This document shows, in pieces, positions 16,026 through 63,430 of a stretch of 64,000 bases of DNA (its first letter is position 1; each line of letters opens with the position of its first letter). Both the position numbers and the translations under genes were made by a program. The stretch is from a virus (taxonomy: Duplodnaviria > Heunggongvirae > Uroviricota > Caudoviricetes), in the IMG/VR virus record IMGVR_UViG_2671181136_000006, one strand, 5' to 3'. The notes beneath the pieces were generated by a model. It was given only the letters and a program-made list of their open reading frames with translations. It was not told the origin of the DNA and did not search any database.

Positions 16026-16087
16026 AATAGTTGTTTCAGAAATTTAACGCGCCAGCGCAATATACACAGATAGATAACTACCTACAA

Positions 16088-16957: not shown

Positions 16958-17034
16958 GCTAGTTTTGCTCCTTCTTAATTCTTGTGATCCATTGTGGCCC
17001 AGCGTTGCCAGGCCACATAATGCTTTGTATCGGT

Positions 17035-18177: not shown

Positions 18178-18283
18178 GTGTTTTTCCTTTTTCTTTTTTG
18201 GTGCGTTTAAACAAGTTGTTATCTTATGTGTTTAAACAAGGCTTACAAATCAAAGAGAAGGTGGGGATATCCCCCACCATATG

Positions 18284-21995: not shown

Positions 21996-23901
21996 AGCTG
22001 CGCCCCTCTTTAACTTCCAGCGTAATAGTTTCCCGGAACCATGACTTCATCTCTTTATGGGAGATAATCAGCACAGTACCTCGCTCGCGAGCTTTGGACT
22101 CCAGAATCCCCATGAGGCGTTCAAGACCGGCTGTATCGAGTGCATCGTCAATTTCGTCGCCGATAAACAAATCGATGTTTTTACTCGCCCGGTTACTAAC
22201 CAGATCCTGCAATGCCAAAGAACACGCAATGCGAACCTTCCGCTTCTCACCACCAGAGAGGGTCTGGAACGACTTACTTGAACCTTTCTTCTGCACACTA
22301 ATGTTGAATTTGTCGCGATACTCACCTTTTTTAGTGACATCCATCGTCGACCACTCAGCAGTAATATTCCCGTCAGACAACGTATTGAGATACTCGGCAG
22401 TGCGTGTATTCAGGAAAGGCGTAACAGACGTCAAAATATGAGAACGCACCCCGGCAGGAGAGTAGACCTGACGAGCTTTTTCCAATAGCAACGTTTGTTC
22501 CTGAATAGCCTTCAGCTCATCTTTTAAGGACTTGAAGGTAGACTTACTGGATACCAGGTTATCTTCGTGTCTGGCGATAAGAGCAATAAACGGATTAATC
22601 TCTTTTGATATACGATCGACCTCAGTACGAGCACGAGTCACAAGAGACTCAATAGCAACAACCTCCTTCTCACGATGACGCAAAGATGAGAGTTGTTTCG
22701 TAAGCTCTTCAATCCGGGCAATGATAGCCGTTACATCAGGTGTCGTTTTAACAAGGGCAGACTCAATGCTTAACGCTTTCTCAAGATTCGTTTTGTGTTT
22801 AGCCATTGCCTCTGCAAGTGTCTTCGCCTGACCAATTTCCTGACGTGCTTGTTCAATGAAATTCTCCTTCACCGTTGATAGATCTTCTTCGCAGTAGGCT
22901 TTGCCACAAGTAGGGCATGGTGATCCCACTTTAGTACCAACCTCTTCTGCTTTGGTCTTAAAATTACGCGCGCGGTTCATTGCATCAGCCTGACTATTTT
23001 CTGTAGCTTTGATGCTTGCCCGAATATCAGTTATCGCACCACGAACTTTGAGCAACTTGGCGTCATGTTCTTCTTTTGAGGCTAACTTTTTGCGCTCACT
23101 TTCGATTGCCTTCTCGGTATCACGGATCTGTTCGGGAAGAGTGCGGATCTCAAGTTCAACTTCCGTTAACTCAACTTCGGCACTTGCCAGCCCAGCCAGG
23201 GCATCGTCATAACGTTTAGAACGCTCTTGTTCCCATGATTCAGAAGAGGCTTTCGCGGACTCAATTTCTGACTGTGTTGCCTCAATGGTCGAGATTGTCG
23301 ACTCCAATTTGGTTTTAACCACGTCCATGCGTGCGGCAGCTGCGTTAGCTCGTTCACGAGCAATAGCGTAGGCGCGTGTCAGTCTGTCAACGCCAGCGGC
23401 TTCTTCTACGATGGTTTTGAGGTTTTTGTCGGACATTCCAGGTAAATCTGGCATAGCTTCTTGGCTCGCATAGATGGAAGCCATGAAAACCTCTTTAGAT
23501 GCACCGATCAGACGCTCGACGAACTCTTGCGTCAGCGCATCTTTGCCTTTCGTCATATCGCCGTCTTCACCACGAACGATAAGCCGATTTTTGAACTCTT
23601 TGTGTTTACGGTGACGAATGATCGCATATCTTTTGCCTTCATCCTCGATGGTTACTGCAACACGACAGTTCTTTTCATGGTCGGTAGACAACACATCGTC
23701 ACCCTTCACACCATGAGCTGTTTCGCCATAAAGACACCACATCAGGCTATTCATTAGCGTTGACTTTCCAGAGCCATTACTTGATGCGGAACTATCATCA
23801 CTATTAACACCCTGAATGAGCACTAAACCACGCTGATCTAACTCGACCTCCGCGCTGGCGATAGCCATAAAATTCTCAACCTGGAGCTTTAAAAACTTCA
23901 T
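21985..23901 (-). CDS. sbcC: SbcC/Rad50-like ATPase
   Basis: N-terminal NFMAI...LIQGVN..SSNGSGKST Walker A, long coiled-coil, C-terminal LSGGE signature and Walker B/D-loop. Confidence 0.85.
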   Translation of the reverse strand: MKFLKLQVENFMAIASAEVELDQRGLVLIQGVNSDDSSASSNGSGKSTLMNSLMWCLYGETAHGVKGDDVLSTDHEKNCRVAVTIEDEGKRYAIIRHRKHKEFKNRLIVRGEDGDMTKGKDALTQEFVERLIGASKEVFMASIYASQEAMPDLPGMSDKNLKTIVEEAAGVDRLTRAYAIARERANAAAARMDVVKTKLESTISTIEATQSEIESAKASSESWEQERSKRYDDALAGLASAEVELTEVELEIRTLPEQIRDTEKAIESERKKLASKEEHDAKLLKVRGAITDIRASIKATENSQADAMNRARNFKTKAEEVGTKVGSPCPTCGKAYCEEDLSTVKENFIEQARQEIGQAKTLAEAMAKHKTNLEKALSIESALVKTTPDVTAIIARIEELTKQLSSLRHREKEVVAIESLVTRARTEVDRISKEINPFIALIARHEDNLVSSKSTFKSLKDELKAIQEQTLLLEKARQVYSPAGVRSHILTSVTPFLNTRTAEYLNTLSDGNITAEWSTMDVTKKGEYRDKFNISVQKKGSSKSFQTLSGGEKRKVRIACSLALQDLVSNRASKNIDLFIGDEIDDALDTAGLERLMGILESKARERGTVLIISHKEMKSWFRETITLEVKEGRSYVV

Positions 23902-24176
23902 ATAACACCTTTGATACCGTGTGTTAGCTTTTGACCTTCTTTCAATCTGAACTCCGTATGCGCCGGGAAGGATCTGCGCCTCAATACGCCTTTTCTGGTT
24001 AACCTTCCAAGATAAAACGCTACGGGATTTCCTTGTGGCGGGTAGGGCTTGTGAAACATCACCGTCTGGCCTCGTTCAAGTCTTTTCATCGTGATGGCAA
24101 AGTCTCGAAAGCTCCCATAACGACTTTGCCTCACACAGCCTCCGAACTCTCCGCTTCGGTGAGGATTTCCTGACAC
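23898..24176 (-). CDS. small hypothetical protein
   Basis: 92-aa ORF between sbcD and sbcC, overlaps both. Confidence 0.3.
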   Translation of the reverse strand: MSGNPHRSGEFGGCVRQSRYGSFRDFAITMKRLERGQTVMFHKPYPPQGNPVAFYLGRLTRKGVLRRRSFPAHTEFRLKEGQKLTHGIKGVI

Positions 24177-25216
24177 AAAATATCCAACTTGCTCAGATCA
24201 AATCCGCCGTCAGTATCGTGGACAATCTTGCAATAAGCAGATACCGACTCTCCCAGGCTATCGATTTTGCTGGTTTCCGTTGTGCTTGCTGTCCCTTCCA
24301 TCATTGATGACTTACGGATGAAGTTGCACACGACACCTTTTGCACCCATTGTTTTGAGGATGTTCTGGTACTTAATGCCTTCTTCATCGTTCTCAATTAC
24401 GGCGCGGAAACGCACGTAGTTGCCGCGAATTTGGTCATCGGCAACATAATCTTCCAGGTTAATGAATTTAGGCGCACTGGTTTCGTAGTGACTGAAACTG
24501 CCATCCGGGTTTACGATCATGTAACCAGCCAGAGATCCAACATCTCCCCAATTTTGATGGGTCAGCGCACCGACACTGATAACTCCAGGAATGACCTCTT
24601 TGTGGTTGTGGTAATGCCCACTAAGCACGAGACGAAAGCCGATATCCTTTAACTCCTGCGCATCGATACCGACGTCAGGCATTGTTGGAATGGCTTTGTT
24701 AATGGATGTATGGATAACAACGTCATGATTATCACCTTCTACACTCTTACGTAATGCTTTCAGATCGCTGATAAGCTCCGCATGATTGTTACGCCAGCTA
24801 ATCAGGTGGACAGTCACATCACCAATTTTTATTGAGTGTGGGCGTTTGCCACATACGATTACCACGCCGATAGAACTCAGCGATGCTGCTGCGTTGGCGC
24901 TATATACTGAATCGTTGGTTTCAAGATCGTGATTACCGGCCAGCATTACTACTGTCAGATCAAGCTCGTTGATAATCCACTTGTACGTTTCAGTTACGTA
25001 ATGCAAAACAGAAGGGGACACAGTTCCTCGGACGTGAAATGTATCACCGGCAACCAACATGTACTTACAACCGGCCTTCTTCATGGCGATGGCTGCTTCT
25101 TTCGTTGCTTCCAACTGTATTTCAAGTCTGGAGTTAAGCCCCTCTGCGTTCGTCGTGGAGAACGCATCCCATTTGTGGTAGTGGCAGTCAGAAATGACGC
25201 CGTATGGCAAAGTCAT
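24131..25216 (-). CDS. sbcD: SbcD/Mre11-like nuclease (calcineurin-like phosphoesterase)
   Basis: SDCHYH, AGDTFH, GNHD, GHYH metallophosphoesterase motifs. Confidence 0.85.
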   Translation of the reverse strand: MTLPYGVISDCHYHKWDAFSTTNAEGLNSRLEIQLEATKEAAIAMKKAGCKYMLVAGDTFHVRGTVSPSVLHYVTETYKWIINELDLTVVMLAGNHDLETNDSVYSANAAASLSSIGVVIVCGKRPHSIKIGDVTVHLISWRNNHAELISDLKALRKSVEGDNHDVVIHTSINKAIPTMPDVGIDAQELKDIGFRLVLSGHYHNHKEVIPGVISVGALTHQNWGDVGSLAGYMIVNPDGSFSHYETSAPKFINLEDYVADDQIRGNYVRFRAVIENDEEGIKYQNILKTMGAKGVVCNFIRKSSMMEGTASTTETSKIDSLGESVSAYCKIVHDTDGGFDLSKLDILCQEILTEAESSEAV

Positions 25217-36860: not shown

Positions 36861-36954
36861 GTGCTTTCCTTTTTACTTATCATCTTATATTGATTATATC
36901 ATTGTGATGATAAGGCAAGGAGTTCGAGGATAGGGGATATGAGGGGATAAGAGA

Positions 36955-36982
36955 AAACATGGCCATAGAGGCCATGTTTATT
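36955..36982 (-). terminator. rho-independent terminator
   Basis: CATGGCCATAGAGGCCATG hairpin with T-run on minus strand. Confidence 0.5.
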
Positions 36983-36985
36983 GGA

Positions 36986-39900
36986 TCACGACTTAATAGT
37001 TTCTGCTACGTCGGCTAATATCGCTTCTAGTCGTTCTCCCTCTTCAGGTCTGAAGTAAAGAATGTTGGGGTTAAACCCGTAAAAGACAGTAACGTCAAGG
37101 TCTGGAAGATACTCCTTCCTGCCGACCAAATCGGATGGCTTGTTTTTGTTGTTAAACAATGAAGTTGCCCGGCTGCCACACGTCAGCACATAGGTCGGAC
37201 GCACCAGATTGATCTCTTCACGCATAAAGTCGGTGAACTGGCCGATCTCGTCTTTGGTGTAGTCTTTTTCTTTGTCTTTAACCTTCTTGCAAACACCTGT
37301 GACATAGAGATCGCCCATGCGTAAATCTCCAGCCGTCAATAGCTTGGCCTTAAAGTCGTCGTATCCGTTCTCCATAAAGTAACCGGTTCGAGCATCATTG
37401 CCGTTCGCATTGTCCAGAATGATCATGATTTTCGGCTTAATACCAATGCTGGGGCGGATTAGTTCATCACCTAAGCCCATTTCAGCCGCCATCCGCGTCA
37501 TGAGTACGTTAATCTCAGCCGAACGTTTGGGGTTCATCTCAAACGGACGTGAGGCTTTAACTGCGTCTATGACAAGGTTTCCCATCAATTCAGCCTGGTC
37601 GCGTAGGCGCTCTGGATCAGTTGCTGGCAGACTACCTGGCTCGATGGATGCAAACGCCCCTACTTTTTGCAGCGATTCGCGCACTCGACTATTACAGGCA
37701 CGTTTCTCGACAGCTTCTTCGAATTGCGCCAGTGACTCGAATTTGCCGCCAACTTTTTCTCGCGCTCTCATGATGGCTTGGCAGCCATTCTCAGAACACC
37801 CTTTCACAGCAGAGAAGGGCGCATACAGCACCTGGCTGCCATCTTCAAGCGTGCGGATCTCGATTCGGTTAGATGACACGTTAACGTCTGGTGGCAATAC
37901 GCGAATACCATAGGTCAGCGCATCTTTAACCAGCCCCTGGTGTTTATCTTCGCCAAGAATAGTGAGAGCAGCAGCGAAAAACTCTGCGGGATAATGAGTT
38001 TTCAACCACATAGATTGATAACTGATTAAGGAGTAAGCAACAGAGTGTGATTTGTTGAACTGGTAGGCACCATTCTTTTCGAATGCGGTCCAGATCTCCT
38101 TCGCTTTCATCTCTGATAGCCCTGGATGTGACGCTGTAACGCGTACTGCGTTTATAGGTAGTTTTGCGCCGTACTCAAGTGCCTCTTCGACAGTTTTCAG
38201 TGTTCCGTCTTCGCATTTAAAATGTTCCGCACGGTGAATGCGCTGTGTAGTGCCATCTTCCAGCTCAACGTCTATCCAGCCAGCTTGAGCCTGAACGATG
38301 AACTTCTCACCCATGCTCTTCATTTTCTCCATGTCTTTTTTGCCGATCGCTTTACGAACGCCGTCAGCTTCAGCCATTGTGAAGCCAGCAAGCAATCGAG
38401 TCGCGTTCATCGTCTGTTCCTGATAAAGAATCACGCCATTTGTTTCTGCGGTAAGTTCATCAAGAACGGGGTGTAATGATTCCGGCGTCATAAAGCCTTT
38501 GGCGACAGAAACATAATCATCCAACATGCCTGACTGAATTGGCCCCGGCCGGAAGAGCGCAGTCGTAGCAACAACCGTTTTAAAGCTCATTGGCTCAATT
38601 CCACCACCTAAATCTTTAAGCAGCTTGCGCATTGGGCCTGATTCAAGCTGGAAAACACCTTGAGTGTACCCAGCAGCAAAACCATCCAGCACCTTGCGAT
38701 CTTCAAGAGAAATGGCATCAAGATTGATATCTTCACCTGTGTTCTCTTTTATGTAGCGTTTTGCACTATCGAGCAAATCGAGAGTTGCCAGACCGAGTAC
38801 GTCCAGCTTAATTAGGCCCATAGCCTCGCAGTAACGCTTGTCAAATGCGATACAACGCGCGTCACCACGGCGTTCAACCGGTGTACGTTCTGTCAGAGGA
38901 ACACCTGCTACGATCATCCCTGCCGCATGTCTACCAAAGCCACGCATAAGGCTTTGTAACTTGCAGGCTGCATTGAATGCATCAGGATATTTTGTTGCGT
39001 ATTTGTCGAGACTTGCCAGTTGTTCGCGCAGCTCCTCCAATGGAAGGCTATCATCCTCGACGTTCTTCAGCTCTTTTGATACCGCCATATCTGCGGACTC
39101 CACACCATAAATACGAGCGGTATCACGTAGTGCAGAGGCTGCGCCCAGGTAGGTGAAGTTCGGAATGCCTGCAACGTAATCTTCGCCGTAGCGTTCATTC
39201 AGATACTCGATCACCTCATGGCGACGTGCCTGGCTGAAGTCCAAGTCCGCATCCGGCAAGTCGAGACGCTCAGGGTTGATGAAACGCTCAAACAGAAGAC
39301 CGTGACGGATTGGGTCGACGTTGGTTATGCCTATGCACCACGCCACCAGAGAACCGGCAGAGGAACCACGACCAGGCCCAACGGGAATGCCAGTTTCACG
39401 ACTATGATTCATCAGATCGCGCACCATCAGGAAGTAACCACAGAATCCCAGGCGAGTCAGCGTGTCCATTTCGTACTTTAGCCGCTCAACATAAACCCTG
39501 TTCTCAGAAGCAGGTGGTGTGTATCCAAACTCTTTTGTGGTAAGACGTTTACGCAGCCCTGCAACAGCCAGTTTCATCAGCGTTGCAGGCTCGTCGTCTG
39601 CCATCTTTGGCAGTGCTGGCGGCAATTCATGCCAGCGCCATGTGCAGGCATCGATAATGGTATCCTGCGTTGTTGAGGCCATTGCAGCTGTTACCGGCAC
39701 ATCCATGCGAACGGAGAAGGCTTTAAGCGCCTCAAGGAGATGGCGGCGACCATTGACGGCGTTATCTCGCTGGTGGGGGATACGCAGACGATGCGGCTGG
39801 TCGATTTTGATGTTGTTCGTAACCATGTGCGCAATGTCTTTAATGTCTGCATCGTCGATCGATTCGTAATAAGCGGGATAGAACGCCACTGGCTCTATTT

Positions 39901-40504
39901 TCAATGCGCTGGCGACTTTCATCGCCCGGACGTTAATCTGGTCGTAGAATGGGGTAGGGTGCGGATAAACCACACTATAGAAGTTGTCTTTTCCACCCGC
40001 TGTAATCAGTGTGCTTATGATTTTTGCAAAATCGTTGCGTTGGAACACGCTACCGATGTCGGAAGTAAGCAGGATGATGTTGCCTTTGGCATATGTAGAA
40101 ACCAACTGTTCGAGCGAGAGACGCGGTACAAAGTAGAACTGTTCTCGTGTGTTGGCCGCCGTCATTAGTTCGCAGATGTCGCGATATCCTTTCTCATTTT
40201 TAATTAGAGCGGTAAACGAGTAGTTACGTCCTCGCTCTAATGATTCCATACATCTCATAGATTCTTTAGCAAGTTTAGCCCGGTGCTCGTATGTGGGATC
40301 ATCAACAATGTTTAGTTTCACACCACAAATAACCGCCATGTCGTCACCAGCGGCACGTTGTAGTGGAATAACGCTCGCAATATTCATGCTATCTGCTGAA
40401 ATTACAGCGGTGTAGCCAGCTTCTCTGGCAATCTTCACCGCGTTTTCTGCTTTTAGAGCCGACTCCCCAAGTGAGAAGTCAGTTCGAACCATCAGTGCCT
40501 TCAT
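36986..40504 (-). CDS. dnaE: DNA polymerase III alpha subunit (DnaE family, PHP domain N-terminal)
   Basis: 1172 aa; N-terminal PHP domain pattern, central polymerase core and GxGRGSSAGSLV-type motifs typical of bacterial replicative pol C family. Confidence 0.9.
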   Translation of the reverse strand: MKALMVRTDFSLGESALKAENAVKIAREAGYTAVISADSMNIASVIPLQRAAGDDMAVICGVKLNIVDDPTYEHRAKLAKESMRCMESLERGRNYSFTALIKNEKGYRDICELMTAANTREQFYFVPRLSLEQLVSTYAKGNIILLTSDIGSVFQRNDFAKIISTLITAGGKDNFYSVVYPHPTPFYDQINVRAMKVASALKIEPVAFYPAYYESIDDADIKDIAHMVTNNIKIDQPHRLRIPHQRDNAVNGRRHLLEALKAFSVRMDVPVTAAMASTTQDTIIDACTWRWHELPPALPKMADDEPATLMKLAVAGLRKRLTTKEFGYTPPASENRVYVERLKYEMDTLTRLGFCGYFLMVRDLMNHSRETGIPVGPGRGSSAGSLVAWCIGITNVDPIRHGLLFERFINPERLDLPDADLDFSQARRHEVIEYLNERYGEDYVAGIPNFTYLGAASALRDTARIYGVESADMAVSKELKNVEDDSLPLEELREQLASLDKYATKYPDAFNAACKLQSLMRGFGRHAAGMIVAGVPLTERTPVERRGDARCIAFDKRYCEAMGLIKLDVLGLATLDLLDSAKRYIKENTGEDINLDAISLEDRKVLDGFAAGYTQGVFQLESGPMRKLLKDLGGGIEPMSFKTVVATTALFRPGPIQSGMLDDYVSVAKGFMTPESLHPVLDELTAETNGVILYQEQTMNATRLLAGFTMAEADGVRKAIGKKDMEKMKSMGEKFIVQAQAGWIDVELEDGTTQRIHRAEHFKCEDGTLKTVEEALEYGAKLPINAVRVTASHPGLSEMKAKEIWTAFEKNGAYQFNKSHSVAYSLISYQSMWLKTHYPAEFFAAALTILGEDKHQGLVKDALTYGIRVLPPDVNVSSNRIEIRTLEDGSQVLYAPFSAVKGCSENGCQAIMRAREKVGGKFESLAQFEEAVEKRACNSRVRESLQKVGAFASIEPGSLPATDPERLRDQAELMGNLVIDAVKASRPFEMNPKRSAEINVLMTRMAAEMGLGDELIRPSIGIKPKIMIILDNANGNDARTGYFMENGYDDFKAKLLTAGDLRMGDLYVTGVCKKVKDKEKDYTKDEIGQFTDFMREEINLVRPTYVLTCGSRATSLFNNKNKPSDLVGRKEYLPDLDVTVFYGFNPNILYFRPEEGERLEAILADVAETIKS

Positions 40505-40682
40505 GTGTTTTTACCTTTCTGGTTTTTTTGATTTTGTCATTGGGGAAGCCTACGAACTTCCCATGCATCGAAATCGCAACTTCTTTTGCTGATTGGTGAC
40601 AATCGGGCTTGTCTGGACACACCAGACAAGCCTTACCAGTTTCAGAAGCAGCGATAAGAGAGCCGAAACATCCTTTACGCAC
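40479..40682 (-). CDS. small Cys-rich hypothetical protein
   Basis: 67-aa ORF with CLVCPDKPDC. Confidence 0.25.
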   Translation of the reverse strand: MRKGCFGSLIAASETGKACLVCPDKPDCHQSAKEVAISMHGKFVGFPNDKIKKTRKVKTHEGTDGSN

Positions 40683-40684
40683 GA

Positions 40685-41920
40685 TTAACCAAATATTTTT
40701 TGAACAACTTCACGAGCCGCTTGTGCAGAAGCTGAAGGGAGTTTGTTAATGAAAGAACGCTCAATACCTGTCACAAAGTCGCCTCGCATCATTCCAATCT
40801 TGGCCGACAACAAAAGTTCACGAGGGCCAATTGGCTGACTAATGAGGTGTTCTTCGTATCCATCGCGAACGATACCGGCAAACTTAACCATCTTTTCAGC
40901 GTATTCATCCACGATGCCTGCATTTGTCAGCATGTTGATCTCTGCGTCTTTGCTCATGTATTTCACATTCGAAACGATGCCAAAACGCGAAAAGTTCGCG
41001 GCGTTCTGGATGTTTGTACCCTGGTACAAGCCGGTTTCATCACCAGATCCGTTCGTGTTGCCAGTGCCAATGAAAGCAAACCGTTCATGCGGAGTAATGC
41101 GACGCCATTCTGGAGTTGCCTCTTTGATGACCAACGCTTCACCTTCCAGCACTGGCTGATACACGCCAAGAATTTGTGGAAACGCAAAGTCGTATTCATC
41201 CGCGAGGTAAACCCAGCCATGCTTCATTGCGAGCGCAAGCAAGCCAGGTTCGAAATACGTAGAGCCATCACGCGCCAGAATTTGCCCCGTAACATGTGCC
41301 TCTTCCATTGATGCTGTATGTTGGGCACGGATCAACGGACGATTGAGCAAAGCACATAGCTGTGTAGGCAATGACGATTTGCCTGTTCCTGCATGACCCC
41401 ACAAATAGCCAGGTATGCCAAGTTCAAGCATCATGAAAATATCTTTGATCAGTTCGAAGTCGCCATATACGTAGCCTTTCTTCACTTCGGGAACGAACTC
41501 TGGATACGGCGTATTGACGTTGACGCTAACCATGAGCGGCGTCCCACGTTTTGTTCCGAGTTCTTCCACCGTTACGTTTAGCAGTTCGTGAGCTGCGACC
41601 AGATCTGTCTTGTACTCAACTGTGCCTGTGTAGCCAGGGCTACTGGTCAAGCCAGAAGATTTGGCCATTTCGCTTTTTTGCTCGGCACGTTTAGCTTGAA
41701 TTGCATCAAGTGCCTTTTTCGATAGCGTTGGTTCATCTGGAAACTGCGTTGTGTACATTTTCAGTACGGTGTCAGGATCGGCATCTTTTACTGACTCAGG
41801 AATGCCCTCGCAATTACCATTGGCTACATGGGACTTAAAATAGTGAAATGATTTGCCGCACCACTTGCAAACAAGGTAATCAGAAGGATTTTTTTCATTT
41901 TGCAGTGCAGTAGTCGTCAT
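40685..41920 (-). CDS. CobS-like AAA+ ATPase (MoxR family)
   Basis: Walker A GHAGTGKSS, N-terminal Cys cluster; paired with downstream vWA protein. Confidence 0.65.
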   Translation of the reverse strand: MTTTALQNEKNPSDYLVCKWCGKSFHYFKSHVANGNCEGIPESVKDADPDTVLKMYTTQFPDEPTLSKKALDAIQAKRAEQKSEMAKSSGLTSSPGYTGTVEYKTDLVAAHELLNVTVEELGTKRGTPLMVSVNVNTPYPEFVPEVKKGYVYGDFELIKDIFMMLELGIPGYLWGHAGTGKSSLPTQLCALLNRPLIRAQHTASMEEAHVTGQILARDGSTYFEPGLLALAMKHGWVYLADEYDFAFPQILGVYQPVLEGEALVIKEATPEWRRITPHERFAFIGTGNTNGSGDETGLYQGTNIQNAANFSRFGIVSNVKYMSKDAEINMLTNAGIVDEYAEKMVKFAGIVRDGYEEHLISQPIGPRELLLSAKIGMMRGDFVTGIERSFINKLPSASAQAAREVVQKIFG

Positions 41921-42015
41921 GCGTTTTTCCTTTGTTCTCTAATGAGCGTTCAACTTCTTATATAAATATATCATCATCTATCGTAAGTGGTTACTTATCA
42001 TTAAGGCTGTTTTGT

Positions 42016-44124
42016 TCACTTTAAAATGATACGAGATAGTTCAGTAACTACAGATGAACCAAGACTATCAACGCTCGTTACCAGGGCATGATTTGAGTAA
42101 AATCTCTCCGGTGCGTCAGTCATGATGCCAATTGCCATCAAATCAATATCAGTCTGCGTTTCAATTTGCTTCGCAACTGAACGCAAATGAGCGTCAAAAC
42201 CTCTCCCAACAGCCCACGGCGCGCCATCACTCAGAACAAGCATGATCTTCCTGTCCTCCAAGCGACCGGAAAATAACGATGCAAGGCTGGCTATGCTTTC
42301 ACCATCCACGTTATTAAGAAGTGGGAATGTGTAGCCTACGCACCCCATACGTGAGCGAACTTCGCGAGAATTTACCTTTTCATTCCAATTTTTGATGATA
42401 GGTAGCATTAAAGATTCAAAGCGAGAGAACTCATACTTGACAGCCTTAAGTTCTCCTGCCGCCATATGACTACCAAATGTAGTGAAGCCGGTGATAATGT
42501 TGGGAACATTTATTCGATCAAGGGCATCGGCGATGGTATATGCACTTGCAAGAGCCAATTGTATCGTTATACCACTCATTGAACCTGATAAATCAATCAC
42601 TTGTTGAACACAGGCGTTAACGGCTTTAGATTCTTCTTTTTTACGAAACACGCGAGCATCATTCATTGCTAATCTGTAGATACTAGAACCATGAATGCGC
42701 CCCCGACGCTGGCCCGGTATAAACTGAACTCTGTTTCTGCTTGCTATTGCTCGCTCCAGGTCTTTTGCCAGCGTCGACGAAACACCTGACGAAAGATGCT
42801 TTTCAATATATTTGTCGAAGAGCTGGTTGCCTTCAGGAACGATGCGATAGCGGCTGATTGGATATCCTCCCAAATCAATATCGGAGAATGTTTTAATAAG
42901 CCGTTTGATATGGGCTTCTGCCTGATCAATCGAGCCGATGAAGTCGTATGAGCGATTGTATGGCCTGTATTCGCTTTTCGAGCTTTCTGTTAACTCGCTT
43001 TTAATCGTTTCGGATAGCGCATCTTCTGTCATGCCTCCGACTTCATCTTCCATGCTATCCAACTCCTCTAAAGCCTCTTCCAGACTCATTTTTGACGGAG
43101 TTGGGATATCTGAAGAGCCGTCTTCTGTCGTTTTTCTTTTTTCGTGGTCAGCGGTTAATGATTCTGACGCCGCGTTATCAGAAGCATCAGAATCTGATAC
43201 CTCTTTATCATTTTCTGTATCATCGAATATTGTTTCTGATGATTCAGAATTATCTGAATCATCACTGTCGTTATTATCATGTTTGTGCTTACTGTGTGAT
43301 TCTGATTTGATAGATTTGTGATTATCTAACACTGAGGGTGTCTCATGATCTTCGTTGTCTTCACTGTTTTCTCCAGAGGCATCCGTCTGGTCAGCGTCTG
43401 AAGGATCGGAAGTTTTTCCCGGAGCTGACTCCTTACCTTTGCTTTCACTTTCAGTGTCTTTGAGGATCTTAGCTATGGTCGCAGCCACCTTTACACAATC
43501 CTCGGTGCAAGACATGTTACGCACGGCCACATCGATACCATGTTCTTTTAATAATGAAATTGGTTTCTCAATGACAGGCCAATATTCATCCATGAAATCT
43601 ACGAACGGTGCTTGGCCATCCCAGGCTCTTACAACCGGACAGAGAAAGAAGTTTAGAAAAAGCGCGCGCTGATCTTTGCCACAATAAGCAATAGCCTCTG
43701 AAGCCTTTGGTTTAAAGACTTTTTCGATTATAAGGCGCTGAGTTGCCATCAGATTACGTCTTGTTCCGTTAAAGACCTGACCCATTTTTCGCTCGATGAA
43801 CACGTCTTCTAAGGCATTCCATAGCGACCAGGAAGGAACGCGTCCTTTTTCTCTCATTTTGTTGGACACACGAATATCGGTAAACAAAATGTGAGCAACC
43901 TCATGATCGAGAAATCCGCGCACAGCATTCATCAATGCCGGTGTTGCGTTATCCGGGATTGATGGGATGTTTACGAGAATTGGCTCTCCATCATCGTTAT
44001 AGCGAACATAAGCGTCGTCCCCTCGTTCTGCAACAGGGATGTTTTTACCTGAAAGGAGAGCGACTACTCGTTTTACACTGTCACGGAAGTCCTGAACCTC
44101 TTTGATGGAACGTTTTTTAGACAT
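42016..44124 (-). CDS. CobT-like protein with acidic low-complexity region and C-terminal vWA domain
   Basis: D/E/S-rich stretch (about aa 230-340), vWA MIDAS-like DLSGSMSG. Confidence 0.6.
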   Translation of the reverse strand: MSKKRSIKEVQDFRDSVKRVVALLSGKNIPVAERGDDAYVRYNDDGEPILVNIPSIPDNATPALMNAVRGFLDHEVAHILFTDIRVSNKMREKGRVPSWSLWNALEDVFIERKMGQVFNGTRRNLMATQRLIIEKVFKPKASEAIAYCGKDQRALFLNFFLCPVVRAWDGQAPFVDFMDEYWPVIEKPISLLKEHGIDVAVRNMSCTEDCVKVAATIAKILKDTESESKGKESAPGKTSDPSDADQTDASGENSEDNEDHETPSVLDNHKSIKSESHSKHKHDNNDSDDSDNSESSETIFDDTENDKEVSDSDASDNAASESLTADHEKRKTTEDGSSDIPTPSKMSLEEALEELDSMEDEVGGMTEDALSETIKSELTESSKSEYRPYNRSYDFIGSIDQAEAHIKRLIKTFSDIDLGGYPISRYRIVPEGNQLFDKYIEKHLSSGVSSTLAKDLERAIASRNRVQFIPGQRRGRIHGSSIYRLAMNDARVFRKKEESKAVNACVQQVIDLSGSMSGITIQLALASAYTIADALDRINVPNIITGFTTFGSHMAAGELKAVKYEFSRFESLMLPIIKNWNEKVNSREVRSRMGCVGYTFPLLNNVDGESIASLASLFSGRLEDRKIMLVLSDGAPWAVGRGFDAHLRSVAKQIETQTDIDLMAIGIMTDAPERFYSNHALVTSVDSLGSSVVTELSRIILK

Positions 44125-44222
44125 GGCTAATCCTTTGTTATGAAAACAAATTATTTACTAGTGTGTTTAATGTAGCACTGCGCGAACAGGGAACTAAGCC
44201 ATTCGCGCAGGGAGAAGAGGGG

Positions 44223-44435
44223 TTAACAGATTCTGACGGCTAAAGACCCGGAGCCGGTATTGAGAAGCGTGAAGCGTTTGTTGTTAAATTCGAATATAAA
44301 GCCAGTTGTGTCATTCACACCAACCTGAATCTGCTCATTCGGTAGATCGGTGAGGATGTCAGCTACACACTCATCAGCTAATTTCTGTACGTGTCCGATC
44401 TCAAGAGCGATTAGGCTGGAAATAGTGGTGTTCAT
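44223..44435 (-). CDS. hypothetical protein
   Basis: 70-aa ORF. Confidence 0.3.
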   Translation of the reverse strand: MNTTISSLIALEIGHVQKLADECVADILTDLPNEQIQVGVNDTTGFIFEFNNKRFTLLNTGSGSLAVRIC

Positions 44436-44612
44436 TCAATCAATCCATTCTAACTTATACTATGGTAAGGAATACTACTAAAATTTATATCAATACTGAA
44501 TACATTCATATCATATACAAGTTAATTTTCTTACCTGTTTTGGGCTAATTTTTCTCCGTGCAATGGCCTTTAACCGGTCTTTTAAGTGCCTATCGAAAAA
44601 AATGATAATAGC

Positions 44613-44657
44613 TTTACAACCCTAACCTTTGATGTAATATCGGTAAGCACTTACCAG
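44613..44657 (+). promoter_or_regulatory. sigma70-like promoter (TTTACA-16-TAATAT) with palindromic operator CGGTAAGCACTTACCAG just downstream
   Basis: -35 at 44613-44618, -10 at 44635-44640, palindrome 44641-44657 belongs to the dispersed GGTAAG..CTTACC family. Confidence 0.55.
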
Positions 44658-44686
44658 TGAGAATTGAACGCGCAAAGGTTGTAACA

Positions 44687-45073
44687 ATGTCTGACAACAA
44701 GATTGAATTTATAGAAAGTCGCTATGCTGCTTTTATCGCAGGGCTGATTGAATCCTCACCTATGAGTCAGGCCCAAATAGCCAGACTTATTGGTTATAAA
44801 AATGCCAACAACCTTTCTTTAATTAAAAGTGGCAAAATTCCTTTGCCTATCGATAAGGTTCGTCCGTTGGCGCTGGCGCTGGGTATTGAGCCAAGTCGTC
44901 TTATGATGATGGTGCTGGAAGAACGCCAACCTGAACTCGCAGCATTTTTATACAAAGAAGGCACCGCTCCTCTTAACGAGGACGAAAAACAGGTTCTTGC
45001 TGCATATAACGAGCGATTCGGTAAAGAGAAAGGCGCATCACAAAAGGTTGTTGAGGCTATAAAGTCTCTATGA
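44687..45073 (+). CDS. HTH DNA-binding protein (XRE-like), candidate repressor
   Basis: SQAQIARLIGYKNANNLSLIKSG helix-turn-helix pattern; start set to MSDNK (ORF track starts 44657). Confidence 0.5.
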   Translation: MSDNKIEFIESRYAAFIAGLIESSPMSQAQIARLIGYKNANNLSLIKSGKIPLPIDKVRPLALALGIEPSRLMMMVLEERQPELAAFLYKEGTAPLNEDEKQVLAAYNERFGKEKGASQKVVEAIKSL

Positions 45074-47992: not shown

Positions 47993-48079
47993 TGGCGGAG
48001 AGTAATGGAATCGAACCATCATCGCTTGCGCAATGGGACGGTTTTCAAGACCGCTTGAGCACCATGCTCCCTACTCTCC
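47993..48079 (-). tRNA. tRNA-Ser (anticodon TGA), class II with long variable arm
   Basis: manual fold: 7-bp acceptor GGAGAGT/ACTCTCC, anticodon loop CTTGAAA, T-loop TTCGATT, encoded CCA. Confidence 0.75.
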
Positions 48080-48443
48080 GGCCGTTGTGGTGGCCGGTAC
48101 TGAATCTCCGGCATACGGTGCAGCCAATTAGGACTACGGACGATCACCGCTCGCGAAAGGGAAGATTTGCGGCCGCATTTCCCTAACATCCAAGAAAGCT
48201 ATCGCATCAGTCTGCGAATCCACCACAACGGTAAGATCACTACCTTTCGACCAGTCATTGTGCACATGAACGACGATTAACCGTAATGATCTTATCGTTG
48301 TGTTGTGAAGCCAGATGCTTATCTTCTGGTTGCCTCAAAGAGCTGCACTTCCTCACAACGGTAAGAGCACTGGTCTGACTCTATCGATTTACGGGCTTGT
48401 GGGTCAGTATCGCCGATTCGCCCAATGCACTTACCTGTTGTGT

Positions 48444-48519
48444 TGGTGCCGGTTAACGGACTCGAACCGCTGACATCCTGCTTACAAGGCAGACGCTCTA
48501 CCAACTGAGCTAAACCGGC
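48444..48519 (-). tRNA. tRNA-Thr (anticodon TGT)
   Basis: acceptor GCCGGTT/AACCGGC, D-loop AGCTCAGTTGGTAGAGC, anticodon loop CTTGTAA, T-loop GGTTCGAGTCC, CCA. Confidence 0.85.
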
Positions 48520-48523
48520 AATT

Positions 48524-48610
48524 TGGTGGGGAGTGATGGAGTCGAACCACCCGAGTCGCCATGACAGTAGATTTACAGTCTACCCCGCTGCCCCTACGGA
48601 CTAACTCCCC
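48524..48610 (-). tRNA. tRNA-Tyr (anticodon GTA), long variable arm
   Basis: acceptor GGGGAGT/ACTCCCC, anticodon stem GTAGA/TCTAC loop CTGTAAA, T-loop GGTTCGACTCC, CCA. Confidence 0.8.
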
Positions 48611-48615
48611 TAAAT

Positions 48616-48690
48616 TGGCGATGGTGGGTGGATTCGAACCACCGACCAGTTGGTTAACAGCCAACTGCTCTACCGCTGAGCTACACCATC
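48616..48690 (-). tRNA. tRNA-Asn (anticodon GTT)
   Basis: acceptor GATGGTG/CACCATC, anticodon stem GTTGG/CCAAC loop CTGTTAA, T-loop GGTTCGAATCC, CCA. Confidence 0.85.
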
Positions 48691-60979: not shown

Positions 60980-62557
60980 TTATCCTCGTTTTTCCCAAAA
61001 CTGTTTTGCCAGTTCGCTCAGAGCGCTAGTTAACTGAGCGACAGATTTCGCACTTTGCAAATTATTCTGCCCGGTCTGTACATTGGTATCAGCAGCATCG
61101 CGTATATTGATAATACTGCGGTTTATGTCTTCACTTACTGCTCCCTGCTGCTCGACCGCAGTCGCTATTTGCGCGTTCATGTCGGTAATTTCGTTAACGC
61201 GTTGGCCAATTCCATCAAGAGCTGTAGCTGCTTCCTCTGCGTGAGCTACACTCGTGTGCGCTTGCCGACTACTTTGCTCCATGACTGTAACAGCGGATTG
61301 CGCTCGCTCTTGTAGAGCGCTGATCATGCTTTGAATATCCGTTGTCGATTGCTGTGTGCGAGCAGCAAGACTGCGAACCTCATCGGCGACAACAGCAAAA
61401 CCACGCCCCTGCTCACCAGCACGCGCGGCCTCAATTGCTGCGTTGAGTGCCAACAAATTCGTTTGCTCGGCGATCCCTCGTATAACGTCAAGAACTTTTG
61501 ATATCTCGTTACTTTGACCTTCAAGCTCATGAATAACCTGAGTGGCTTGCCTAATTTCACCTTCAAGGGCAGTGATTGACTGGCTTGTGTGGGCTACCAG
61601 ACGCTGGCCAGATGCCGTCTCAGTGTCTGCTCTTCCGGCCGCATCTGCAGCATGCTGTGCATTGCTCGCAACCTCTTGAATGCTTGCCACCATTTGGTTT
61701 ACTGCCGTTGCTATTTGATCTGTCTCTGCCTGCTGCTCAACTGTAAGTACATTGCTTGACTCAATATCCTTTAGTAGGCCTCGGGTGTGTTCGCTAAGCC
61801 GATTTGATGCATCACCTATGCGACCTACTATGGCGCCTGTTTCAGCTTGCATCATTCGTAAAGCAAACTCTATTTGGCCAAACTCATCGGTGCGCCCAGT
61901 GTAGAGGGATTGACTTAATGGGTTATTGGAAATATTCCTGGCTCTTTCAACCAGTCTTCCAAGAGGAGAGAGAATAGCCAAAACACTAACAGAGCTTAAG
62001 CTTCCTGACATTAAAGTGGCTAACAATAAGCTGCTTATTGATGTATCAGTAAGCATGCCGGCAGCCATTGCGCTTGATATAATACTACCCCATATGAGCA
62101 AGAGTATTTTCACGGAAAAGCTAGCAGCCAATTTCGGCCTCGCGGCCTTCCCGCTTCTCAATTGAGCATATAATTTTTCCGCAGCCAAAACCTGCTCAGG
62201 TTCAGGCTTGGTCCTTACAGACTGGTATTCAACAATCGAACCATTCTTAGCTATTGGCGTTACATAAGCACTTACCCAATAGTGGTCGCCATTTTTACAG
62301 CGATTTTTTACTAGCCCCATCCATGAGCGGCCAGATTTTAATGTACTCCACATATGCTCAAATGCAGCAGGCGGCATATCTGGGTGTCTTACGATGTTGT
62401 GAGGCTGGCCTAATAGTTCTTCCTCAGTGAAACCACTGATTTTAATGAAGTCAGGATTAACGTACGTGATATGGCTTTGAGGGGAGGTAGTCGAAAGAAT
62501 ATTGGCATCTTTTGGGAGTTCTAAGTTTCGACCCGTCACTGGTAAATTCTGGCGCAT
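60980..62557 (-). CDS. methyl-accepting chemotaxis-like protein with N-terminal PAS domain (Tn1721 orfI-like passenger)
   Basis: Aer-like PAS N-terminus, TM region, highly conserved MCP signalling motif [37 protein letters not shown]. Confidence 0.85.
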
Positions 62558-62866
62558 AAGAACCTCAAGGGTTGGCTGTTTTATTTTATTGTTTTCGGCA
62601 TTAAGCCCAATTTCTTGAGCGTTACGATAAAGCTAGCATGGAAACGATAGGTGCAAGCAAGTTAAGGGTTGCATCGCGCATGTCAATCTAGGCTATACCC
62701 TAACTTGATGTCAGGCAGGGCCGCGCCGCTTCGTCAGAATAGAGTCTGCTTTCCCATTTTTTGACACATGCCCGCGAAGGTTATAGATTTCAGCCTGACA
62801 GAAATGGGCTTTGAGGCACAACGGAACAGAAAGTGCACTTAAGCCGCCTTCAACCAAGGAGACATC
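62558..62866. promoter_or_regulatory. res site / divergent promoter region
   Basis: between divergent orfI and tnpR; contains TGTCAGGC / GCCTGACAG inverted subsite-like repeats. Confidence 0.5.
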
Positions 62867-63427: not shown

Positions 63428-63430
63428 CAC

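What the first reader, a model, noticed from the sequence alone, without database searches (positions are those of the whole stretch)
40685..44124. CobS/CobT-like AAA+ (MoxR) and vWA pair next to the replicative polymerase
A MoxR-type ATPase and an acidic vWA-domain partner resemble cobaltochelatase CobS/CobT, but no other cobalamin genes are present. In phages such pairs are widespread and functionally unassigned. Placement directly upstream of dnaE suggests a chaperone-like role in replisome or nucleoprotein assembly rather than cobalt insertion.
Basis: partly seen in the sequence, partly recalled or inferred. Interest (0 to 1): 0.45.

Follow-up and report, generated by a model that had tools for sequence, protein, structure and literature searches.

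The report
Phage CobS/CobT-like AAA+ motor pair
Two adjacent genes of an E. coli phage-plasmid are relatives of the CobS/CobT motor that inserts cobalt during vitamin B12 synthesis. Neither the element nor its host has the third subunit, the CobT-like protein keeps a protease-type metal site that the real enzyme has lost, and the pair always sits among the phage's DNA-replication genes, so it most likely does a different, still untested job.

Summary
Window 40685-41920 (-) encodes a 411-aa MoxR-class AAA+ ATPase (CobS-like). Window 42016-44124 (-) encodes a 702-aa protein with a CobT N-domain, an acidic linker and a MIDAS-vWA domain. They lie in one tightly packed minus-strand unit that ends with dnaE. 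The window is an SSU5/pHCM2-like phage-plasmid of E. coli.

The pair is homologous to cobaltochelatase CobS/CobT but is not that enzyme:
- It scores far below the NCBIfam equivalog cut-offs.
- No CobN is encoded, and E. coli has no CobN pathway.
- The element's own ribonucleotide reductase is class I, which does not use B12.
- Gene order is reversed.
- CobS-like has a zinc-knuckle N-extension and lacks the C-terminal helix of real CobS.

The CobT N-domain was recently shown to have an M48-peptidase fold in Brucella. Here it keeps an intact HExxH...E motif: 148 of 150 representative clusters have it, against 0 of 80 canonical CobT.

The order CobT-CobS-DnaE holds in 47 of 52 divergent viral contigs. 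Other phage lineages place the pair beside other replication machinery.

Best reading: an ATP-driven motor-adaptor that grips, and perhaps cleaves, a protein client during phage DNA replication. The client is unknown. The genes are already catalogued; the reinterpretation is computational.

The parts
44436..44656 (.). Intergenic region between the divergent HTH regulator gene (44657-45073, +) and the minus-strand unit. Probable promoter/operator region.
   Evidence: Gene layout. The HTH protein hits PHROG 8 'transcriptional regulator'. A 14-nt inverted repeat lies at 44583-44596 / 44640-44653. An HTH homologue sits next to cobT-like in most related viral contigs. The promoter itself was not demonstrated.
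44223..44435 (-). 70-aa ORF, first gene of the unit. Function unknown.
   Evidence: PHROG 2627, E 3.1e-40. Found only in SSU5-like relatives.
42016..44124 (-). CobT-like adaptor, 702 aa: M48-like N-domain (aa 1-225), acidic disordered linker (aa 226-400), shaft-equivalent segment (about aa 462-500) and vWA domain (aa 492-702).
   Evidence: Pfam CobT plus CobT_C; PHROG 1576. PDB CobT. Linker composition. Domain mapping onto B. melitensis CobT.
43792..43905 (-). Zincin-type motif of the N-domain: H74-E75-V-A-H78 (43891-43905) and E106-D107-x3-E111 (43792-43809).
   Evidence: D73, H74, E106 and E111 are invariant, and E75, H78 and D107 nearly invariant, in 108 homologues. HExxH is present in 148 of 150 representative clusters and in 0 of 80 canonical CobT. 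The AF2 model (pLDDT 93.3) places the two motifs on consecutive long helices that follow a three-stranded sheet.
42580..42594 (-). MIDAS motif D511-L-S513-G-S515 of the vWA domain. The remaining MIDAS residues fall in the conserved F547-T548-T549 stretch (GFTT) and at D633 (SDG).
   Evidence: D511, S513, G514, S515, D633 and G634 are invariant in alignment A3. Equivalent to the B. melitensis CobT MIDAS residues D422/S424/S426/N518/D546.
40685..41920 (-). CobS-like MoxR-class AAA+ ATPase, 411 aa.
   Evidence: AAA_5; PHROG 249; PDB CobS 9ujv, E 1.1e-25. Walker A G175-S182, Walker B D241-E242, and R312, R352, R367 are invariant in 40 family members.
41828..41869 (-). Zinc-knuckle-like motif C18-x2-C21-x4-H26-x4-H31 at the start of a ~140-aa N-terminal extension (41501-41920) that canonical CobS lacks.
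   Evidence: The motif is found in 34 of 55 viral CobS-like proteins. Many of the others carry a C-x2-D variant. C18 is invariant and H26 nearly invariant. There is no Pfam hit. The PDB alignment to CobS begins only at residue 142.
40479..40682 (-). 67-aa Cys-rich ORF between cobS-like and dnaE, apparently translationally coupled to both.
   Evidence: PHROG 6337, E 3.2e-45. Starts 2 nt after the cobS-like stop and overlaps the dnaE start by 26 nt. Restricted to SSU5-like relatives.
36986..40504 (-). DnaE-type replicative polymerase, last gene of the unit.
   Evidence: Pfam PHP, DNA_pol3_alpha, finger and HHH_6 domains; PHROG 405.
36955..36979 (-). Terminator-like hairpin (10 pairs) 7 nt after the dnaE stop. 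No other minus-strand terminator-like site lies between 44435 and 36986.
   Evidence: Consensus scan. This is a pattern match only; function was not shown.

Best explanation
The pair is a phage-type motor-adaptor machine of the MoxR AAA+/vWA kind. It shares ancestry with cobaltochelatase CobS/CobT but is not a chelatase.

Inferred by homology to the B. melitensis CobST structures:
- CobS-like forms a hexameric ATPase ring.
- CobT-like docks on it, with its N-domain on the ATPase lid and a 'shaft' segment ahead of the vWA domain entering the ring pore.
- A protein client is held between the N-domain and the MIDAS face of the vWA domain, where CobN sits in the real enzyme.

Shown here:
- The phage-type N-domain keeps a complete HExxH...E metal-binding and catalytic motif, on the M48-peptidase-like fold that has become a dead scaffold in real CobT.
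- The genes are packed with dnaE into one apparent transcription unit inside the phage's replication and recombination module.

Inferred:
- ATP hydrolysis remodels the client, and the zincin site cleaves it or holds a metal for it.
- The client is a phage or host protein whose removal, activation or processing is needed for lytic phage DNA replication. Its identity is unknown.
For: Family and active sites:
- Homology to CobS/CobT and to PHROG 249/1576.
- ATPase residues are intact and the MIDAS motif is intact.

N-domain:
- HExxH at about residue 70 in 148 of 150 clusters at 50% identity, out of 1138 clusters that hit the N-domain. Also in 120 of 120 close relatives and 51 of 55 viral loci.
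- Canonical CobT reads D-S-M-A-L-R at the same place in 0 of 80 cases with HExxH.
- AF2 model with pLDDT 93.3 and topology helix, three strands, then helices. This matches the crystal structure of B. melitensis CobT_N, described there as M48C-peptidase-like.

Docking:
- The polar lid contact R312/Q311 with D80/N130 of the Brucella complex is kept as K408 (R in 39 of 40) and Q407, with D73 invariant and N124 nearly invariant.
- The shaft-equivalent segment has invariant G475 and near-invariant G471, L482 and F493.

Context:
- CobT-CobS-DnaE order in 47 of 52 viral contigs at 25-46% CobT identity.
- Replication neighbours in Nickievirus, Rhizobium, ICP2-like and T4-like cyanophages.
- Tight spacing, with a terminator-like hairpin only after dnaE.

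Selection in a host without CobN:
- dN/dS 0.06-0.14 for cobS-like and 0.10 for the CobT N-domain, against 0.035-0.066 for dnaE.
- Present on plasmids of 219 of 5426 complete E. coli genomes.
Against: - There is no experimental evidence for this family.
- HExxH has been lost in a Nickievirus-like clade (DSEISK/DGEIAK) and in real CobT. The scaffold therefore works without it, and proteolysis may not be the core activity.
- Pore residues that grip the shaft in Brucella CobS (S102, I104, D110, I112, R147) are not conserved. CobS-like also lacks the C-terminal helix that binds CobT_N. The assembly may therefore differ in detail.
- Synteny within one broad lineage can be inherited rather than selected. 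Early and nucleotide-metabolism genes cluster with replication genes in phages anyway.
- DnaE and the pair are not obligate partners.
Confidence: 0.45

Rival explanations
1. Auxiliary metabolic gene. The viral CobS/CobT join the host's CobN to raise cobalamin synthesis. This is the standard reading for cyanophages and archaeal viruses.
For: - Sequence homology to CobS/CobT.
- Proposed in PMC8651126 and PMC1079782.
- Some hosts of such phages have CobN (rhizobia, cyanobacteria; my own knowledge).
Against: - NCBIfam equivalog scores are 86.6 against a cut-off of 558.55 (CobS) and 66.7 against 759.05 (CobT). Canonical controls score 649.6 and 1165.9.
- No CobN-sized or CobN-annotated gene is in the window or in the parts of the related plasmid that I read.
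- E. coli makes B12 only after heterologous cobN/S/T and the whole upstream pathway are added (PMC6249242).
- The element's RNR is class Ia NrdAB. Sullivan et al. noted the same mismatch in 2005.
- A 48.7-kb Vibrio cholerae podovirus carries the pair without any RNR.
- The N-domain surface that binds CobN in Brucella carries a different, catalytic-type motif here.
Confidence: 0.04
2. Metal-insertion chaperone without proteolysis. Like NorQ/NorD, CoxD/CoxE or real CobST, the pair uses ATP to load a metal into a phage or host metalloenzyme of DNA synthesis. The HExxH...E site would hold that metal.
For: - The MoxR/vWA paradigm is summarised in the CobSTN preprint.
- The HExxH...E and MIDAS sites are both conserved.
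- Metalloenzymes are encoded nearby: NrdB, the DnaE PHP domain, primase.
Against: - No metalloenzyme is common to all carriers. The ICP2-like phage has no RNR and no DnaE, and cyanophages have no DnaE.
- The PHP N-terminus of this DnaE reads R-T-D where, from my own knowledge, active PHP domains have H-x-H.
- A Glu after the first His (HExxH) is the catalytic base of zincins, not a metal ligand. Its near-invariance is better explained by hydrolysis.
Confidence: 0.2
3. Host-takeover or counter-defence machine. It would be an early-expressed AAA+-coupled protease or remodeller that removes a host protein unrelated to the replisome, and it sits beside replication genes only because early genes cluster.
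For: - The pair is placed in early or replication arms in several lineages.
- The unit is divergent from a repressor-like HTH gene.
- cobT/cobS are more diverged and more mosaic than dnaE: dS is about 3 or saturated against about 1. That pattern fits genes engaged with hosts.
Against: - No meaningful match to any PADLOC defence model; that library does not cover anti-defence proteins.
- The N-domain is under strong purifying selection (dN/dS 0.10), not diversifying selection.
- The family spans phages of proteobacteria, cyanobacteria, actinobacteria and haloarchaea. That argues for a conserved target, not a lineage-specific defence protein.
Confidence: 0.15
4. Decaying passenger genes with no current function in enterobacterial phage-plasmids.
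For: - Some plasmids carry IS insertions or lack annotation for neighbouring genes (H29 and H32).
Against: - Intact ORFs across hundreds of plasmids.
- dN/dS 0.06-0.24.
- All catalytic motifs are conserved.
Confidence: 0.02

Closest known systems
Aerobic (class I) cobaltochelatase CobS-CobT of the CobNST complex (B. melitensis structures 9ujv/9uka; bioRxiv 10.64898/2026.07.21.739949)
   Same: - Clade-6-type AAA+ motor with conserved ATPase residues.
- Adaptor with the same three parts: M48-like N-domain, acidic disordered linker, and shaft plus MIDAS-vWA.
- The polar lid/N-domain contact is kept (R312/Q311 with D80/N130, here K408/Q407 with D73/N124).
   Different: - No CobN partner and no corrin pathway.
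- Far below the equivalog cut-offs.
- HExxH...E is intact here and absent there (S-M-x-x-R).
- Gene order is T then S instead of S then T.
- CobS-like has a ~140-aa N-extension with a zinc knuckle. It lacks the CobS_N motif and the C-terminal helix alpha10.
- Shaft-gripping pore residues are not conserved.
Viral cobST cluster: cyanophage core gene cobS plus the 'peptidase' T4-like GC146, PHROG 249/1576 (described in PMC8651126, PMC3037559, PMC1079782)
   Same: This window's pair is a member. It matches PHROG 249 (E 1e-106) and PHROG 1576 (E 1e-299). It has the same T-then-S order, the same HExxH in the CobT-like protein (Syn33 HEVGH, JSF27 HECYH) and the same position among replication genes.
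   Different: - The SSU5, Nickievirus and Rhizobium lineage adds the zinc-knuckle N-extension to CobS-like. Cyanophage and ICP2-like versions lack it.
- That lineage places the pair immediately before dnaE.
- The literature reads the cluster as a B12 auxiliary metabolic gene and calls the 'peptidase' annotation a mistake. The evidence here points the other way.
MoxR AAA+/vWA motor-adaptor pairs: NorQ-NorD, CbbQ-CbbO, CoxD-CoxE, RavA-ViaA, and midasin
   Same: An AAA_5-type ATPase next to a MIDAS-vWA adaptor that links the motor to one protein client. These are the next-best PDB hits after CobS.
   Different: As far as I know, those adaptors have no zincin-type N-domain. Their clients are respiratory or carbon-fixation enzymes, none of which is present here.
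M48 zincin peptidases (Ste24/ZMPSTE24, HtpX, Oma1/BepA). FtsH is the known case of an AAA+ motor joined to an HExxH peptidase.
   Same: - HExxH on a helix that follows a small beta-sheet, with a downstream acidic helix.
- Like FtsH, motor and zincin would act on one substrate.
   Different: - No sequence-profile match to any peptidase family.
- Only 28-33 residues separate HExxH from the acidic helix.
- The protein is soluble, not membrane-bound.
- Motor and peptidase are on separate chains joined through a vWA adaptor.
- Activity is untested.

Membership tests
Cobaltochelatase subunit CobS (NCBIfam TIGR01650, EC 6.6.1.2) | Score at or above the curated equivalog cut-off (558.55 bits) | tested here: not met
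   86.6 bits, covering only residues 141-411. The Sinorhizobium control scores 649.6 bits.
Cobaltochelatase subunit CobS (NCBIfam TIGR01650, EC 6.6.1.2) | AAA+ core with Walker A/B, arginine finger and sensor residues | tested here: met
   K181, D241 and E242 are invariant and align with Brucella K77, D141 and E142. R312, R352 and R367 are invariant.
Cobaltochelatase subunit CobS (NCBIfam TIGR01650, EC 6.6.1.2) | CobS_N motif (PF12556) and the C-terminal helix alpha10 that binds CobT_N | tested here: not met
   No PF12556 hit, whereas the canonical control hits at E 3.2e-17. The protein ends at the residue equivalent to Brucella G315, so residues 316-328 are missing.
Cobaltochelatase CobNST complex | A CobN subunit and its substrate pathway (hydrogenobyrinic acid a,c-diamide) in the element or the host | tested here: not met
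   dnaE is the only window ORF of 1000 aa or more. Nothing is annotated as CobN in the parts of plasmid pERB3f3 that I read. Absence from E. coli rests on the literature (PMC6249242) and established knowledge; I did not search E. coli chromosomes.
Cobaltochelatase subunit CobT (NCBIfam TIGR01651) | Score at or above the curated equivalog cut-off (759.05 bits) | tested here: not met
   66.7 bits, covering residues 297-697 only. The canonical control scores 1165.9 bits.
Cobaltochelatase subunit CobT (NCBIfam TIGR01651) | Pfam CobT N-domain (PF06213) plus CobT_C vWA (PF11775) with a MIDAS motif | tested here: met
   95.8 bits against a cut-off of 26.1, and 274.8 bits against 21. D511, S513, S515 and D633 are invariant.
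Cobaltochelatase subunit CobT (NCBIfam TIGR01651) | N-domain in its canonical, non-catalytic form (D-S-M-A-L-R in place of D-H-E-x-x-H) | tested here: not met
   The window has D73-H74-E75-V-A-H78. None of 80 canonical proteins has HExxH. The canonical sample is limited to alphaproteobacteria close to the solved protein.
MoxR-class AAA+ / vWA motor-adaptor pair | AAA_5-type ATPase encoded next to a MIDAS-containing vWA protein | tested here: met
   AAA_5, E 2.1e-15. PDB neighbours are CobS, midasin and CbbQ/NorQ. The vWA partner lies 95 nt upstream.
Viral cobST cluster (PHROG 249 + PHROG 1576) | Full-length profile matches and adjacent T-then-S arrangement in a phage genome | tested here: met
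   E 1.1e-106 over residues 11-410 and E 9.7e-300 over residues 5-702. The arrangement is the same in ZY21, RHph_N1_10 and JSF27. In Syn33 the order is the same but two small genes lie between the two.
Zincin (gluzincin, M48-like) metallopeptidases | HExxH motif plus a downstream acidic ligand on the next long helix | tested here: met
   H74-E75-x-x-H78 with E106, D107 and E111. The motif is conserved in 148 of 150 clusters. Helices 62-81 and 97-117 in the AF2 model.
Zincin (gluzincin, M48-like) metallopeptidases | Zincin fold | tested here: inconclusive
Zincin (gluzincin, M48-like) metallopeptidases | Match to a curated peptidase sequence family | tested here: not met
   Only Pfam CobT matched in 39 N-domains scanned at E up to 5.
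Zincin (gluzincin, M48-like) metallopeptidases | Zinc binding and peptide-bond hydrolysis | not testable with these tools
   This needs purified protein, metal analysis and a substrate.

The most novel reading that the evidence does not exclude
The phage-type CobS/CobT is the catalytically active form of this machine. It would be an AAA+-driven, vWA-adapted M48-like metalloprotease that processes or clears a protein at phage replication forks, working like FtsH or like SPRTN/Wss1 with Cdc48. The B12 cobaltochelatase CobST would then be a pseudo-protease offshoot whose dead peptidase cleft was re-used to hold CobN. If so, the 'cobS/cobT auxiliary metabolic genes' counted in viromes say nothing about vitamin B12.
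Probability: 0.15. Interest if true: 0.8.

Novelty: new variant of a known kind. Interest (0 to 1): 0.5.

Why it matters
cobS and cobT are routinely reported as cobalamin 'auxiliary metabolic genes' of marine, gut and archaeal viruses. cobS is a core gene of T4-like cyanophages. Its role has been an acknowledged puzzle since 2005, because the phages' own ribonucleotide reductases do not use B12.

This window offers a tractable test case. The host is E. coli, which has no CobN and no corrin pathway, yet the element keeps both genes under purifying selection and packs them into one unit with its replicative polymerase.

The intact HExxH...E motif sits on a fold that was shown experimentally only in July 2026 to be M48-peptidase-like in real CobT. 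That gives a concrete, mutable hypothesis. If it holds, a widely used virome marker would need re-annotation, a new type of AAA+-coupled protease or remodeller in phage replication would be defined, and the origin of the chelatase motor would be clarified.

If it fails, the pair remains an ordinary, already catalogued phage gene cluster of unknown function.

Tried and rejected
- **B12 for a class II RNR.** Rejected. The element encodes class Ia NrdA/NrdB. The ICP2-like carrier has no RNR at all.
- **Obligate DnaE accessory factor.** Rejected. There are 1213 DnaE phage records against 494 CobS-like records, with little overlap of host groups, even at E 1e-3.
- **Defence or counter-defence family.** PADLOC gave only a weak, low-complexity DrmE hit (E 9e-4) in the acidic linker.
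- **Sequence link of the N-domain to a peptidase family.** None was found in Pfam for 39 members. The PHROG 459 'peptidase' hit is circular, because it is the cyanophage CobT-like family itself.
- **Foldseek of the N-domain model against PDB.** No hit below E 2.7.
- **BFVD search.** It returned only other viral vWA/CobT-like proteins, with non-significant zincins at E > 0.3.
- **First word-indexed homologue search.** It returned only close SSU5-like relatives. Diversity came from the representative library instead.
- **afdb50 fold library.** Unavailable.
- **dN/dS against ~80%-identical relatives.** Unusable for cobT/cobS because synonymous sites are saturated. Closer relatives were used instead.
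- **Literature.** No paper in the searchable library links CobT to HExxH or zincins, or reports an experiment on phage CobS/CobT.

Full report
**1. What is there**

The window is an SSU5/pHCM2-like phage-plasmid of E. coli.
- Region 36900-44500 is 99.6% identical to plasmid pERB3f3.
- It is 95-98% identical to Escherichia phages CMS-2020a, PhiR41_1 and Cyrano, and about 80% identical to Salmonella phage SSU5.
- The two genes occur on plasmids, never chromosomes, of 219 of 5426 complete E. coli genomes.
- Related DNA occurs in 783 plasmid records, mainly from Klebsiella, Escherichia, Enterobacter, Yersinia and Salmonella.

On the minus strand the order is:
- a 70-aa ORF (44223-44435);
- CobT-like, 702 aa (42016-44124);
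- CobS-like, 411 aa (40685-41920);
- a 67-aa Cys-rich ORF (40479-40682);
- DnaE (36986-40504);
- a UvsY-like protein, a gp32-type SSB, a 5'-3' exonuclease and RecA.

Upstream lie a divergent HTH regulator, an integrase, glutaredoxin, four tRNA genes, ligase, primase and a DnaB-like helicase.

Spacing points to one transcription unit. The 67-aa ORF starts 2 nt after the cobS-like stop and overlaps dnaE by 26 nt. The only minus-strand terminator-like hairpin between the 70-aa ORF and uvsY lies 7 nt after the dnaE stop. This is a pattern match, not a demonstrated terminator.

**2. Family assignment**

- CobS-like: Pfam AAA_5 (E 2e-15) and PHROG 249 (E 1e-106). Its best solved relative is cobaltochelatase CobS (9ujv, E 1e-25), followed by midasin and CbbQ/NorQ.
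- CobT-like: Pfam CobT (E 4e-27), CobT_C (E 7e-82) and PHROG 1576 (E 1e-299), with PDB CobT as its solved relative.
- The Walker A/B, arginine-finger and sensor residues are invariant across the family, and so is the MIDAS motif (D511-x-S-x-S ... D633).
- Residues 226-400 of CobT-like are 29% Asp/Glu and 26% Ser/Thr, with net charge -35.

**3. It is not the cobaltochelatase**

- Against NCBI's equivalog models the pair scores 86.6 bits (cut-off 558.55) and 66.7 bits (cut-off 759.05). A Sinorhizobium cobS-cobT pair fetched as a control scores 649.6 and 1165.9.
- dnaE is the only window ORF of 1000 aa or more. The parts of the related plasmid outside the window that I read hold structural, partition and small genes and no CobN.
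- E. coli makes B12 only when heterologous cobN, cobS and cobT and the upstream pathway are introduced. Its own 'CobS/CobT' are unrelated nucleotide-loop enzymes (PMC6249242).
- That name clash explains the wrong annotations in phage Cyrano and a conflation in Sullivan et al. 2005.
- The element's RNR is class Ia NrdAB. Sullivan et al. noted the same inconsistency for cyanophages.
- A 48.7-kb Vibrio cholerae podovirus spends 2.9 kb on the pair although it has no RNR and no DnaE.
- Yet the genes are constrained in E. coli elements. dN/dS is 0.06-0.14 for cobS-like. For cobT-like it is 0.10 in the N-domain, 0.31 in the linker and 0.17 in the shaft plus vWA. For dnaE it is 0.035-0.066.

**4. What distinguishes the phage-type proteins**

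A phmmer search with residues 1-230 of CobT-like against 1.84 billion representative proteins found 1138 clusters.
- Of the best 150, 148 carry HExxH at about residue 70 (HEV[AG]H).
- Nearly all the long ones also carry DxSGS.
- In 108 aligned full-length members D73, H74, E106 and E111 are invariant, and E75, H78 and D107 are nearly so.

In 80 canonical CobT proteins from alphaproteobacterial genomes the same stretch reads R-G-L-G-D-S-M-A-L-R.
- That means H74 becomes S, E75 becomes M and H78 becomes R. None of the 80 has HExxH.
- This canonical sample is narrow: all are close relatives of the solved Brucella protein.

An AF2 model of the N-domain (pLDDT 93.3, pTM 0.89) shows a helix, a three-stranded sheet, the HExxH helix, then a helix bearing E106/D107/E111.
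- Foldseek against PDB and Pfam peptidase models found nothing.

Independent support came from a July 2026 preprint on B. melitensis CobSTN (10.64898/2026.07.21.739949).
- The crystal structure of canonical CobT_N has exactly this topology, and its authors describe it as M48C-peptidase-like.
- The paper does not mention HExxH, zinc or phages.

Real CobT is therefore a pseudo-peptidase, and the phage-type family keeps the catalytic signature. Cyanophage and ICP2-like versions keep it too: HEVGH and HECYH. A Nickievirus-like clade has lost it: DSEISK/DGEIAK.

Further differences from the canonical pair:
- Gene order is T then S in phages. cobS lies upstream of cobT in most of the 76 canonical loci where both were found.
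- CobS-like has a ~140-aa N-extension that begins with C-x2-C-x4-H-x4-H. This occurs in 34 of 55 viral homologues, and many of the others carry a C-x2-D variant.
- CobS-like lacks the CobS_N motif and the C-terminal helix alpha10.

**5. Mechanistic inference from the solved chelatase**

In the Brucella complex:
- six CobS subunits form a ring;
- a CobT 'shaft' (Q373-R413) enters the pore when nucleotide binds;
- CobT_N sits on the CobS lid through R312/Q311 paired with D80/N130, plus a hydrophobic patch on alpha10;
- CobN is clamped between the beta-sheet side of CobT_N and the MIDAS face of the vWA domain.

Mapping these onto the window:
- R312 corresponds to K408 (R in 39 of 40 family members) and Q311 to Q407 (Q in 30 of 40).
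- D80 corresponds to D73 (invariant) and N130 to N124 (nearly invariant).
- The shaft corresponds to about S462-K500, with invariant G475.
- The pore residues that touch the shaft (S102, I104, D110, I112, R147) are not conserved, and alpha10 is missing.

I therefore infer the same motor-adaptor-client architecture with a different client and altered contacts. The client would lie against what in a zincin is the substrate-binding edge. Together with the near-invariant catalytic Glu, this makes cleavage or metal-dependent processing the most economical reading. This step is inference.

**6. Where it works**

- In 47 of 52 IMG/VR contigs recovered with a profile of distant CobT-like proteins (25-46% identity), the order is (helicase-primase-ligase)-(HTH)-CobT-CobS-DnaE-(UvsY-gp32). 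Four of the others are cut by contig ends and one has a different order.
- Pseudomonas phage ZY21 and Rhizobium phage RHph_N1_10 show the same module.
- In the ICP2-like phage the pair sits in the early arm with helicase, PolA, exonuclease and ligase.
- In cyanophage Syn33 the 'peptidase' (the CobT-like gene) and cobS lie between gp46/gp47 and the clamp and clamp-loader genes.
- BFVD shows the same N-domain fused to vWA in actinophages and haloarchaeal viruses.

The common denominator is DNA replication machinery of any type, not DnaE. Most DnaE phages lack the pair and most carriers lack DnaE. Inherited synteny and co-regulation of early genes remain alternative explanations.

**7. Verdict**

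- The feature is real and already catalogued. RefSeq now names the proteins 'cobaltochelatase CobT-related protein' and 'AAA family ATPase'. The viral cobST cluster is described in PMC8651126.
- What appears new, within the literature I could search, is the evidence that the viral family is a distinct variant. It keeps an intact M48-type motif, is not a chelatase in hosts such as E. coli, and is tied to replication modules.
- All of this is computational. The client and the activity are unknown.
- Confidence is about 0.95 that this is not a cobalt chelatase in this host, and 0.45 for the motor-adaptor-client model with a replication-linked client. The stronger claim, that it is an active protease and the ancestor of the chelatase motor, gets 0.15.

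Noticed in passing
window 36986-37480 (-), C-terminal ~160 aa of DnaE: This segment gives a weak Pfam UDG-superfamily hit (E 7.7e-4, 20 bits, below the 24.3 cut-off). It also matches PHROG 13175/4335 'unknown function'. It may be a uracil-DNA-glycosylase-like domain fused to the phage polymerase.
   Followed up: partly
window 60980-62557 (-), and GC content of 62001-64000: An Aer-like chemoreceptor (PAS, HAMP and MCP signalling domains) is encoded near the window end, where GC rises from about 0.45 to 0.575. It looks like host-derived cargo on a phage-plasmid.
   Followed up: no
window 40479-44124 compared with 36986-40504, using loci L032-L068: Between the E. coli-type and the more distant SSU5-like relatives (about 80% identical CobS), synonymous divergence is about 1 for dnaE and about 0.3 for the 67-aa ORF. 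It is about 3 or saturated for cobS-like and cobT-like. This indicates a recombination mosaic with a boundary near cobS-like and the 67-aa ORF.
   Followed up: partly
L002 (Escherichia phage Cyrano) 15645-19084; PMC1079782: Cyrano annotates the pair as 'cobalamin synthetase' and 'dimethylbenzimidazole phosphoribosyltransferase'. This confuses the Pseudomonas-type CobS/CobT names with the unrelated Salmonella/E. coli CobS/CobT. The 2005 cyanophage paper makes the same conflation.
   Followed up: yes
window 47993-48690 (-): Four tRNA genes (Ser-tga, Thr-tgt, Tyr-gta, Asn-gtt) lie between the glutaredoxin gene and the ligase module.
   Followed up: no
window 44583-44596 and 44640-44653: A 14-nt inverted repeat (86% complementary) lies just upstream of the start codon of the HTH regulator gene, which is divergent from the cobT-cobS-dnaE unit. 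It may be an operator.
   Followed up: no
L002 10261-11109; L234 41106-44397: Accessory insertions in close relatives. Phage Cyrano has hicAB between dnaE and uvsY. Plasmid pERB3f3 carries host-type metG and apbC.
   Followed up: no
L105 3260-3898 (Sinorhizobium americanum): A J-domain (DnaJ-like, HPD motif) ORF lies immediately upstream of the canonical cobS-cobT pair, with a similar arrangement of reading frames. I did not check whether this is conserved.
   Followed up: no
phage records H184-H194 (Staphylococcus Kayvirus, Listeria P100-like phages): At a relaxed threshold, about 300 Herelleviridae genomes show a distant AAA_5 relative of CobS-like (about 25% identity, E 1e-6 to 1e-8). One is annotated 'putative porphyrin protein'. 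I did not examine whether a vWA/zincin partner is adjacent.
   Followed up: no
window 14813-20599 (-) and 21985-25216 (-): The same element encodes thymidylate synthase, a MazG/PRA-PH-like protein, class Ia NrdA/NrdB and an SbcC/SbcD-like nuclease pair. This is a large nucleotide-supply and DNA-processing set for a ~110-kb temperate element.
   Followed up: partly
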